Positions 18,709-50,154 of a DNA stretch of 64,000 nt are shown here, one piece after another. This DNA is from the human T2T-CHM13v2.0 reference genome, Homo sapiens, in NCBI GenBank assembly GCA_009914755.4, contig CP086569.2, positions 6,080,001 through 6,144,000 on the forward strand. Reading direction: 5' to 3'. Numbering within the stretch: the stretch's first letter is position 1; the number at the start of each line of letters is the position of its first letter. Under the pieces are notes generated by a model. It was not told the origin of the DNA and ran no database searches. It saw only the letters and a program-made list of their open reading frames with translations. Position numbers and translations under genes: made by a program.

Positions 18709-18724
18709 CAGTGGGGTAAGTTTC
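18709..18724 (+). repeat. Candidate degraded target-site duplication (poly-A side) of the L1 at 18725-21879: cagtggggtaagtttc.
   Basis: The other flank at 21880-21897 reads cagtggggtataggcttc. The first 10 bp are identical and the remainder is related with indels. Confidence 0.5.
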
Positions 18725-18933
18725 TTTTTTTTATTGTACTTTAAGTTTAAGGTACATGTGCACAATGTGCAGGTTTGTTACATATGTATACATGTGCCAT
18801 ATTGGTGTGCTGCACCCATTAATTCATCATTTACCATTAGGTATATCTCCTAATGCTATCCCTCCCGCCTCTCCCCACCCCACAATTCCCAGTATGTGAT
18901 GTTACCCTTCCTGTGTCCACGTGTTCTCATTGT

Positions 18934-21920
<2,987 letters not shown>

Positions 21921-48221: not shown

Positions 48222-48530
48222 GACATGTAATGCCACAGACCAAGAAGGGCCACACAAACAGGCCACCAAAAGTTTGACAGACTCAAAAATAAGTAGTGCT
48301 GAAGTGTAATAGCCACATTCATTTAAGCAGATTCCACTTACAGGCACACACACACACACCCACACACACAAACACAGCCACACCAACATTCGCAACACTC
48401 CCACAGAAACACACAGCCAAGCAGCTTCTGAGGCTGCATGGTTCTGCAGGAAGCTCCACCTGAAAGAGACCATCCCTAGGGAACACAGGTGGGCTGAATC
48501 TAGAAATCACAGTGGGACAAGTTTCAAAAA

Positions 48531-48544
48531 GACTAACCAATACA
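48531..48544 (+). repeat. Target-site duplication (left copy) of the L1 at 48545: gactaaccaataca.
   Basis: The identical 14-mer recurs at 49398-49411, immediately after the second poly-A. The preceding A residues may extend the TSD to ~19 bp. Confidence 0.85.
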
Positions 48545-49071
48545 GAGAAATGCAAATCAAAACCACAATGAGATACCATCTCACACCCGTTAGAATGGCA
48601 ATCATTAAAAAGTCAGGAAACAACAGTTGCTGGAGAGGATGTGGAGAAATAGGAACACTTTTACACTGTTGGTGGGACTGTAAACTAGGTCAACCATTGT
48701 GGAAGTCAGTGTGGCGATTCCTCAGGGATCTAGAACTAGAAATACCATTTGACCCAGCCATCCCATTACTGGGTATATACCCAGAGGATTATAAATCATG
48801 CTGCTATCAAGACACATGCACCTGTATGTTTAGTGCGGCATTATTCAGAATAGCAAAGACTTGGAACCAACCTAAATGTCCAACAATGATAGACTGGATT
48901 AAGAAAATGTGGCACATATACACCATGGAATACTATGCAGCCATAAAAAATGATGAGTTCATGTCCTTTGTAGGGACATGGATGAAATTGGAAATCATCA
49001 TTCTCAGTAAACTATCGCAAGAACAAAAAACCAAACACCGCATATTCTCACTCATAGGTGGGAATTGAACA
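48545..49071 (+). pseudogene. L1 ORF2 C-terminal fragment. The open frame is intact through the native stop, but it is only the last ~175 aa, so it is non-functional.
   Basis: ORF 48550-49068 is [45 protein letters not shown]...[57 protein letters not shown], with only a few substitutions relative to human L1 ORF2p. Confidence 0.88.
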
Positions 49072-49278
49072 ATGAGATCACATGGACACAGGAAGGGGAA
49101 TATCACACTCTGGGGACTGTTGTGGGGTGGGGGGAGGGGTGAGGGATAGCATCGGGAGATATACCTAATGCTAGATGACGAGTTAGTGGGTGCAGCACAC
49201 CAGCATGGCACATGTATACATATGTAACTAACCTGCATAATGTGCACATGTACCCTAAAACTTAAAGTATAAAAAAAA
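48545..49278 (+). mobile_element. LINE-1 (L1PA-like) 5'-truncated 3' fragment (~0.73 kb) with a short poly-A.
   Basis: It starts gagaaatgcaaatcaaaaccacaatgagataccatctcacacccgttagaatggcaatcattaaaaagtcaggaaacaac (L1 ORF2 3' region). It ends ...aacctgcataatgtgcacatgtaccctaaaacttaaagtat-aaaaaaaa at 49271-49278. Confidence 0.92.
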
Positions 49279-49397
49279 GTTCATATAATAATAGTTATGT
49301 AATGGACTCATGAGAATATAATAAAATTAACTGATAAATGTGCTTTATAATATCAAATATTAATTACATATATAATATAAAAACTGAGAAAAAAAAA
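49279..49397 (+). other. AT-rich ~110 bp segment plus a second poly-A between the L1 poly-A and the downstream target-site duplication. Candidate L1 3' transduction.
   Basis: gttcatataataatagttatgtaatggactcatgagaatataataaaattaactgataaatgtgctttataatatcaaatattaattacatatataatataaaaactgag, followed by aaaaaaaaa (49389-49397) and then the TSD. This sequence occurs nowhere else in the array. Confidence 0.6.
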
Positions 49398-49411
49398 GAC
49401 TAACCAATACA
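49398..49411 (+). repeat. Target-site duplication (right copy) of the L1 at 48545: gactaaccaataca.
   Basis: Perfect match to 48531-48544. The unit then continues with atgtctaag as expected. Confidence 0.85.
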
Positions 49412-50154
49412 ATGTCTAAGAAGGCTTGAGGTCTTTTGCAGATCTTTTTGGATCCTTAGGGATTTCACAGTTTATTCCTGGGGCTTTGCTTGATGTTTCT
49501 TCAGGCTGGTTTGCAGCCGGCATCAATCTATTCCACTTTCATTTGGCTATAGCAATGAAAGTCCTTAAATCAGGAGTTTTCCAGGATGGCCTCAATTTGC
49601 ACTCCAAATCTTCCTTGCACATTGGAGTACTCCCCCTTGAACAGTGGGGCATTGGTGTGAACTGGTTGTGCAATTAAGGGAATGTGGGGATGGAGTTAGA
49701 AGCACCTTCTGTATCATCTTTCATTTTTTTTTGCTGGACCGCATCTGCCCCTCACCAGATTGTATCCTCACTCCTATCTGACTTTATTGATTGTCACACT
49801 CTATGTCCTACAATGAAATCCCAAGATGATGGAGGGTGCCTTCTCACGACGTGAAGCACCTAGCTGGCTGGGAACCGAATATGAGGTAAATTCAAAAGGC
49901 CTGTGGACAAGACTGCTAGTGTGCTCCCTGGGTTTCCTGCAGGACAATGAATCTCTGGGAGAGGTTTGTCTTTTTGGTGTGGTGTGCTCCTCTTACTTCT
50001 AGAAGGGTGCCTTTTTTTGCATGGGGAGGTGATTTGGAGGCCAGCCTGTCTCTCAATTCATTTTCAATTAATGAACCACAGAAAAATAAAGAACACTGAG
50101 CCCTGCAGCCCAAGCAGAACCACACAGACAGGCCAACAAAAGGTTAGGAGACTC

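What the first reader, a model, noticed from the sequence alone, without database searches (positions are those of the whole stretch)
48545..49411. Second L1 insertion with a perfect 14 bp TSD and a ~110 bp AT-rich segment between two poly-A tracts (candidate 3' transduction)
A plus-oriented 0.73 kb L1 3' fragment with an intact ORF2 C-terminus to its native stop ends in a short poly-A (49271-49278). It is followed by 110 bp of AT-rich sequence found nowhere else in the array, then a second poly-A (49389-49397), then a perfect repeat of gactaaccaataca that also sits at 48531-48544. The arrangement TSD-L1-An-unique-An-TSD is the signature of a 3' transduction. The transduced sequence could identify the source L1 locus.
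Basis: partly seen in the sequence, partly recalled or inferred. Interest (0 to 1): 0.5.

Follow-up and report, generated by a model that had tools for sequence, protein, structure and literature searches.

The report
Truncated L1 with probable 3' transduction
A shortened copy of the primate L1 jumping gene landed in one unit of an old 2.4-kb tandem array and most likely brought along about 110 bp of DNA from next to its parent copy, which is a well-known and ordinary by-product of L1 copying.

Summary
An 867-bp block (48545-49411) is a clean insertion. With one copy of the flanking repeat removed, the site lines up colinearly with 22 other units of the surrounding ~2.4-kb diverged tandem array. 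Each of those units carries the repeat's homologue once. The block is a 726-bp 5'-truncated L1 3' end. Its ORF2 C-terminus matches human ORF2p residues 1104-1275 up to the native stop. After it come A8, 110 bp of 82% A+T sequence that is unique in the window and not repetitive, an A-run, and the second repeat copy. The target-site duplication is 14 bp and can be extended to 19 bp (AAAAAGACTAACCAATACA). It starts at a TTTC/AAAAA site resembling the L1 endonuclease consensus as I recall it. There is no duplication next to the first A-run, so the 110 bp lies inside the insertion. The best reading is a short "partnered" 3' transduction by a young L1PA element. The element's own end lacks AATAAA. 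Only variant poly(A) hexamers precede the distal A-run. The decisive test, finding the 110 bp just 3' of a source L1, could not be run because no primate genome was available and exact-word scans found nothing. A later nested insertion or a host-transcript retrocopy remains possible. This is a known phenomenon of low interest.

The parts
48526..48544 (+). Target-site duplication, 5' copy (AAAAAGACTAACCAATACA). The core 14 bp is 48531-48544. The five leading A are part of the ancestral unit motif GTTTCAAAAAG.
   Evidence: repeat extension; the homologous single-copy motif is present in 22 paralogous units.
48545..49270 (+). 5'-truncated L1 (young L1PA type) 3' fragment of 726 bp: the end of ORF2 plus the 3' UTR.
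   Evidence: ORF2p match. (91.5% identical to the other L1 in the window, on the minus strand).
48550..49068 (+). Open remnant of ORF2, 172 aa plus stop. It equals ORF2p residues 1104-1275 and is not a functional gene on its own.
   Evidence: ORF list. (phmmer against PDB chains 8uw3, 9k6g and 8sxt, E 1.5e-113, aligned over residues 1-172 to the last residue of the chain).
49271..49278 (+). Internal A8 run. Under the transduction model it is the remnant of the source element's own genomic A-tail, transcribed through. The L1 end here has only TATAAA (49268-49273) and no AATAAA.
49279..49388 (+). 110-bp non-L1 segment, 82% A+T, unique in the window. It is the candidate transduced 3' flank of the source L1.
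   Evidence: no other copy. (no tandem or internal repeat). (stop codons in all six frames). (absent from all paralogous units).
49374..49381 (+). Overlapping variant poly(A)-signal hexamers AATATA and TATAAA, starting 15 and 13 nt before the distal A-run. They are the only candidates in the usual 10-30 nt window.
   Evidence: The expected 10-30 nt spacing is taken from PMC13009371.
49389..49397 (+). Distal A-run of 9 A: the new poly(A) tail (4-9 A). The last five A may belong to the TSD.
49393..49411 (+). Target-site duplication, 3' copy. The core 14 bp is 49398-49411.

Best explanation
This is one retrotransposition event by target-primed reverse transcription, in five steps.

1. A young L1PA source element elsewhere in the genome was transcribed past its own weak 3' end into flanking DNA. 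The RNA was cleaved and polyadenylated about 110 nt downstream.
2. The L1 endonuclease nicked the bottom strand of this array unit at 5'-TTTTT/GAAA (top strand TTTC/AAAAA).
3. The exposed T-run primed on the RNA's poly(A). Reverse transcription copied the tail, then the 110-nt flank, then the source's genomic A-run, then 726 nt of L1, and then stopped (5' truncation).
4. Staggered second-strand cleavage 14-19 bp away produced the target-site duplication.
5. The copy is dead on arrival and has no function here. The 110 bp is a passive tag of the parent locus.

Shown directly: the insertion boundaries, the TSD, the empty sites, the L1 identity, and the uniqueness and non-repetitive nature of the 110 bp. 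Inferred: the read-through origin of the 110 bp and the use of the variant poly(A) signal.
For: - The reconstructed empty site aligns colinearly with 22 paralogous units, each with one copy of the TSD homologue (consensus GTTTCAAAAAGACTCACCCCTACA).
- There is a perfect 14-19 bp direct repeat flush with the L1 5' end and with the distal A-run.
- No duplication follows the proximal A-run.
- The TSD starts at TTTC/AAAAA, close to the L1 endonuclease consensus TT/AAAA. The consensus is established knowledge recalled from memory.
- The ORF2 C-terminus and native stop are present.
- The L1 end lacks AATAAA and keeps only TATAAA, which fits read-through.
- The 110 bp is unique in the window, not a tandem or simple repeat, and not L1-like against the 3.1 kb of L1 present in the window.
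- Variant hexamers TATAAA and AATATA start 13-15 nt before the distal A-run.
- From PMC13009371: about 25% of L1 insertions carry a transduction, 72% of partnered ones show two poly(A) tracts, and 71% of the somatic transductions there were under 100 bp, so a 110-bp one is unremarkable.
Against: - The source locus was not found. Two exact 22-mers from the 110 bp are absent from the metagenome and prokaryote-genome collections, and the first of them from the viral collection. These hold little or no primate DNA, so the result is uninformative rather than negative.
- There is no canonical AATAAA or ATTAAA within 10-30 nt of the distal A-run. The only AATAAA (49320-49325) is 69 nt upstream.
- The distal tail may be as short as 4 A.
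- The structure alone cannot separate co-insertion from a later insertion into the A-tail.
Confidence: 0.8

Rival explanations
1. Two events. A plain 5'-truncated L1 inserted first. Later, a separate short retro-insert (an orphan transduction or the 3' end of a cellular mRNA, 110 nt plus tail) integrated into the L1's A-tail, with a TSD made only of A residues.
For: A-tails are good L1 endonuclease targets (established knowledge). The junction TAT/AAAAAAAA at 49268-49278 fits the nick consensus. The 110 bp is flanked on both sides by A-runs that could hide an all-A TSD.
Against: If A8 were the TSD, the right-hand A9 would leave about one A for the nested element's own tail, and up to five of those A belong to the outer TSD. 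By my own rough estimate, a second hit inside a target of about 10-30 bp is far rarer than the roughly 25% of L1 insertions that carry transductions (PMC13009371).
Confidence: 0.08
2. The whole 867 bp is a 5'-truncated retrocopy of a host transcript (mRNA or lncRNA driven by a non-L1 promoter). That transcript's 3' region happened to contain a sense-oriented L1PA 3' end followed by 110 nt and a poly(A) site.
For: After 5' truncation the structure is identical to a transduction. L1 fragments are common in 3' UTRs and lncRNAs (established knowledge).
Against: Nothing in the window argues directly against it. It is less likely a priori because L1 proteins act preferentially on the RNA that encoded them (cis preference, established knowledge). 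The source-locus layout would also be the same (L1 end, A-run, 110 bp), so the difference lies only in the promoter used.
Confidence: 0.08
3. The 110 bp is not retro-copied DNA. It is either the L1 A-tail degenerated and expanded into A+T-rich sequence, or filler DNA added during repair.
For: High A+T content of 82%. Old L1 tails often evolve into A-rich microsatellites (established knowledge).
Against: Tandem Repeats Finder at minimum score 30 finds no tandem structure, and no internal direct or inverted repeat is found. T is nearly as frequent as A (39 against 51), and 20 G or C are scattered along the segment, unlike tail-derived repeats. The other L1 in the window keeps a plain T8 tail.
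Confidence: 0.03
4. The 110 bp belonged to the array unit before insertion, and the distal repeat is coincidental.
For: None found.
Against: All 22 paralogous units run straight from the TSD homologue into the right flank with no extra segment. The 14-19 bp repeat is perfect and flush at both ends, against a chance expectation of 0.28 matches per window even with 2 mismatches allowed. No proximal TSD exists.
Confidence: 0.01

Closest known systems
L1 3' transduction of the 'partnered' type. From memory: first shown by Moran et al. 1999 and surveyed in the human genome by Goodier et al. 2000 and Pickeral et al. 2000. Read here: PMC13009371.
   Same: The layout is TSD, L1 3' end, A-run, non-L1 unique sequence, A-run, TSD. 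The transduced length is short (110 bp). The L1 is 5'-truncated. The target site resembles the endonuclease consensus. The element's own poly(A) signal is weak.
   Different: The source locus is unidentified. The poly(A) signal before the distal tail is only a variant hexamer. Both A-runs are short (8 A, and 4-9 A), as expected for an old fixed copy rather than a fresh somatic one.
Ordinary 5'-truncated L1PA insertion without transduction.
   Same: L1 body, TSD, target motif and truncation are the same. The other L1 in this window (about 18726-21879) is of this kind, with a single T8 tail next to its TSD.
   Different: Here 110 bp of foreign sequence and a second A-run lie between the L1 end and the TSD.
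Orphan 3' transduction or processed-pseudogene fragment inserted into an A-tail (nested insertion).
   Same: It would give a short unique segment ending in an A-run and bracketed by A residues.
   Different: It needs two independent events at one site of about 10-30 bp. The right-hand A-run is too short to hold both a nested tail and an all-A TSD without later shrinkage.

Membership tests
LINE-1 (primate L1PA) insertion made by target-primed reverse transcription | Sequence homologous to L1 ORF2 and the 3' UTR, colinear up to the 3' end | tested here: met
   The 172-aa ORF equals ORF2p residues 1104-1275, E 1.5e-113. It is 91.5% identical to a second L1 in the window.
LINE-1 (primate L1PA) insertion made by target-primed reverse transcription | Target-site duplication of roughly 7-20 bp flanking the whole insert | tested here: met
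   Perfect 14 bp, extendable to 19 bp.
LINE-1 (primate L1PA) insertion made by target-primed reverse transcription | Empty site: the flanks are contiguous, with one TSD copy, where the insert is absent | tested here: met
   This was tested on 22 paralogous array units, not on a true allele or orthologue. All are colinear with the reconstructed empty site.
LINE-1 (primate L1PA) insertion made by target-primed reverse transcription | 3' poly(A) abutting the TSD, and a nick site resembling 5'-TTTT/AA on the primed strand | tested here: met
   An A-run of 4-9 A sits before the TSD. The bottom strand reads 5'-TTTTT/GAAA at the TSD start. The consensus itself is from established knowledge.
L1 3' transduction (partnered) | Non-L1 sequence between the L1 3' end and the terminal poly(A), inside the TSD | tested here: met
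   The 110 bp at 49279-49388 is unique in the window, unlike the 3.1 kb of L1 present there, and lies inside the only TSD.
L1 3' transduction (partnered) | Two A-tracts: the source's genomic tail and the new tail | tested here: met
   A8 at 49271-49278 and A9 at 49389-49397. This layout is reported for 72% of partnered transductions (PMC13009371).
L1 3' transduction (partnered) | A poly(A) signal 10-30 nt upstream of the distal tail | tested here: inconclusive
   Only the variant hexamers AATATA and TATAAA start 15 and 13 nt upstream. The canonical AATAAA is 69 nt upstream.
L1 3' transduction (partnered) | The transduced sequence maps immediately 3' of a source L1 at another locus | not testable with these tools
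   No primate genome is available. Exact 22-mer scans of the metagenome, prokaryote-genome and viral collections found nothing. Look-ups of window ORFs found no record.
Human-specific L1HS (Ta / pre-Ta) | ACA or ACG trinucleotide at the diagnostic 3' UTR position (from memory) | tested here: not met
   The window has GATGACGAGTTAGTGG, that is GAG. This points to an older L1PA subfamily. The exact subfamily was not assigned because no Dfam or Repbase consensus was available.

The most novel reading that the evidence does not exclude
The 110-bp tag does not come from the flank of an L1 promoter-driven source. It comes from a host gene or lncRNA 3' end that had taken in an L1PA fragment. In that case the insert would be a piece of a cellular transcript moved into the array, a small case of L1-mediated shuffling of gene sequence. 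A related possibility is that the array's conserved GTTTC/AAAAAG motif is a recurrent L1 integration hotspot. It was hit twice, in different units and in opposite orientations.
Probability: 0.1. Interest if true: 0.2.

Novelty: already known. Interest (0 to 1): 0.08.

Why it matters
It matters little in itself. L1 3' transduction has been known since 1999 and is catalogued genome-wide.

- If the 110-bp tag is mapped, it would name the parent L1PA copy and any sibling insertions.
- The insertion also serves as a time marker for the surrounding array. Neither this L1 nor the older one has spread to neighbouring units, and the units are only about 70-75% identical. The array has therefore not been homogenised by unequal exchange or gene conversion since these insertions.

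Tried and rejected
**Source locus**
- Exact 22-mers TAATGGACTCATGAGAATATAA and AACTGATAAATGTGCTTTATAA were scanned. The first was run against metagenome contigs, genome contigs and viral contigs, the second against metagenome contigs and genome contigs only. There were no hits. These collections hold little primate DNA, so the result is uninformative.
- Exact-protein look-ups were run for the L1 ORF remnant and for two ORFs flanking the insert, hoping for contigs of the same locus, an empty allele or the source. None is on record.
- The search for homologous proteins was not run. L1 ORF2 fragments fall into huge 90% clusters, so the chance of reaching the source did not justify the cost.

**Pfam**
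- Pfam found no family for the 172-aa ORF at E <= 0.001. Identity was established through PDB ORF2p chains instead. An earlier PDB query with a wrong-frame peptide found nothing.

**Identity of the host array**
- It is not a snoRNA or miRNA cluster: no Rfam family reaches its gathering score in 64 kb.
- It does not consist of MUC16 SEA repeats: tblastn with a repeat recalled from memory gave E >= 0.29.
- No exon-like conservation peaks appear across 12 aligned units.
- No long ORFs are present, and stops are dense in all frames.
- It is not SST1 and not the Y-chromosome 2.4-kb repeats, whose units are at least 92-97% alike.
- The array remains unnamed.

**Degenerated-tail or minisatellite origin of the 110 bp**
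- Rejected by TRF and the repeat search.

Full report
**Observation**

- L1-like sequence begins at 48545 (GAGAAATGCAAATCAAAACC...) and ends at 49270 (...CTTAAAGTAT).
- It is followed by A8 (49271-49278), a 110-bp segment (49279-49388) and A9 (49389-49397).
- GACTAACCAATACA (49398-49411) also stands at 48531-48544, immediately before the L1.
- The repeat extends five more bases to the left, giving a 19-bp duplication AAAAAGACTAACCAATACA. The TSD is therefore 14-19 bp and the distal tail 4-9 A.
- The exact 14-mer occurs nowhere else in the window. With up to two mismatches allowed, 0.28 matches are expected by chance and four are found. One of the two inexact matches is the homologous position of another array unit.

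**Is it an insertion?**

The window is a tandem array of about 2.4-kb units that are only about 68-80% identical to each other. I joined the left flank, with one TSD copy, to the right flank and aligned this reconstructed empty site with the same region of 22 other units.
- All 22 are colinear across the join.
- Each carries one copy of the TSD homologue. The consensus is CAAGTTTCAAAAAGACTCACCCCTACAATGTCTAGGCAGGCC.

The whole 867 bp, including the 110 bp, is therefore absent from the ancestral unit.

**What the insert is**

- The ORF at 48550-49068 (172 aa) aligns over its full length with solved human LINE-1 ORF2p chains, residues 1104-1275 (E 1.5e-113), and ends at the same last residue. The stop is native. 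Pfam found no family for this ORF.
- The DNA is 91.5% identical to the other L1 in the window, 18724-19456 on the minus strand.
The translation of that sequence reproduces the PDB ORF2p C-terminus shown. Against it, this copy is about 96.5% identical and the other L1 about 92.5%.
- The 3' UTR carries GAG where Ta elements have ACA (diagnostic recalled from memory). It is therefore a young L1PA but not L1HS-Ta. The exact subfamily was not assigned, because no consensus library was available.
- The copy lacks about 5.3 kb of 5' sequence, which is the usual truncation.
- By the same recollection of L1HS, the last two TSD bases (CA) also match the L1 sequence at the join. This possible 2-bp microhomology is tentative.

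**Target site**

The TSD begins at top-strand TTTC/AAAAA, which is bottom-strand 5'-TTTTT/GAAA. It is one base off the L1 endonuclease consensus TT/AAAA (established knowledge recalled from memory). The bottom-strand T-run is what would prime on a poly(A) tail.

**The 110 bp**

- It is 82% A+T, with A 51, T 39, G 12 and C 8.
- It has no other copy in the window even at word size 7; the best match is 11 bases.
- It does not match the 3.1 kb of L1 present elsewhere in the window.
- It has stop codons in all six frames.
- It has no tandem or internal repeat structure. It is therefore not a degenerated or expanded A-tail.
- The bases after the first A-run (GTTCATATAATAAT) do not repeat the left flank, so there is no proximal TSD. 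The 110 bp lies inside the one and only TSD.
- The L1's own end has no AATAAA and keeps only TATAAA at the junction with the A-run. This fits a weak terminator that is read through.
- Before the distal A-run, the only hexamers in the usual window are the variants AATATA and TATAAA, which start 15 and 13 nt upstream. A canonical AATAAA lies 69 nt upstream, too far to have been used.

**Mechanism**

The best reading is a single TPRT event using a read-through L1 transcript, that is, a short partnered 3' transduction. A recent long-read study gives the following figures (PMC13009371).
- About 25% of L1 insertions carry transduced sequence.
- 72% of partnered transductions show two poly(A) tracts.
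- 71% of the somatic transductions there were shorter than 100 bp.
- 79% of transduction endpoints have a poly(A) signal nearby.

The layout here is the textbook one.

The rivals and my probabilities for them are as follows.
- A later nested retro-insertion into the A-tail: about 0.08. It is disfavoured because the right-hand A-run is too short to hold a nested tail plus an all-A TSD, and because a second hit on such a small target is rare.
- A retrocopy of a host transcript that contained the L1 end: about 0.08. It differs only in the promoter used.
- Tail degeneration or filler DNA: about 0.03.
- An ancestral 110 bp: under 0.01, refuted.

**What could not be done**

The decisive test is to find the 110 bp immediately 3' of a source L1, and that needs a primate genome. 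Exact 22-mer scans found nothing. Both 22-mers were run against the metagenome and prokaryote-genome collections, and the first also against the viral collection. Exact-protein look-ups for three window ORFs found no record. These negatives say nothing about the hypothesis.

**Context**

- The array has no long ORFs.
- Conservation is uniform along the unit, without exon-like peaks.
- No Rfam family is found.
- CpG observed/expected is 0.14 at 46.6% G+C.
- It looks like an old, methylated, neutrally drifting non-coding tandem array. I could not name it. MUC16 repeats, snoRNA or miRNA clusters, SST1 and the Y-chromosome 2.4-kb repeats were considered and rejected.
- Neither L1 has spread to neighbouring units, so the array has not been homogenised since they arrived.

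**Verdict**

The phenomenon is already known and ordinary, so interest is low.

Noticed in passing
window 18709-21897: The other L1 (about 3.1 kb) has a 5' inversion of the twin-priming type. Its 3' part is on the minus strand: a T8 tail at 18726-18733, with ORF2 fragments on the minus strand up to at least 21473. The last stretch before 21879 reads as ORF2 sense on the plus strand (...AGAAGGCAAGAAATAACTAAGATCAGAGCAGAACTGAAGGAAATAGACACACAAAAAACCCTTCAAAAAA). Its TSD is imperfect: ACAGTGGGGTAAGTTTC at 18709-18725 against CAGTGGGGTATAGGCTTC at 21880-21897. It is older, about 92.5% identical to L1HS as recalled from memory.
   Followed up: partly
window 18720-18733 and 48520-48530: Both L1 insertions used the same conserved motif of the array unit, GTTTC/AAAAAG, in two different units and in opposite orientations. 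The top-strand nick TTTC/AA gave the minus-oriented L1. The bottom-strand nick TTTTT/GA gave the plus-oriented one. The motif reads as an endonuclease-like site on both strands.
   Followed up: partly
window 1-64000: The host sequence is a tandem array of at least 24 units of about 2.4 kb, only about 68-80% identical to each other. Conservation is uniform and there are no long ORFs or Rfam hits. CpG observed/expected is 0.14, and each unit holds a CA-rich microsatellite of variable length. I could not identify it. It looks like an ancient, non-homogenised, non-coding array.
   Followed up: partly
window about 49510-49515: The unit that received the L1 is truncated. About 100 bp to the right of the insertion, homology jumps from unit position about 100 to about 1515-1610, so about 1.4 kb of the unit is missing. 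The next unit boundary is only 1047 bp away. Because the L1 has an intact TSD, this deletion is a separate event. Other short spacings between successive unit starts (1681, 1738 and 1931 bp) point to further partial units.
   Followed up: no
window 28244-28493: Local tandem duplication with a 134-bp period, 1.9 copies and 80% matches. It covers the A-rich and CA-rich part of one array unit.
   Followed up: no
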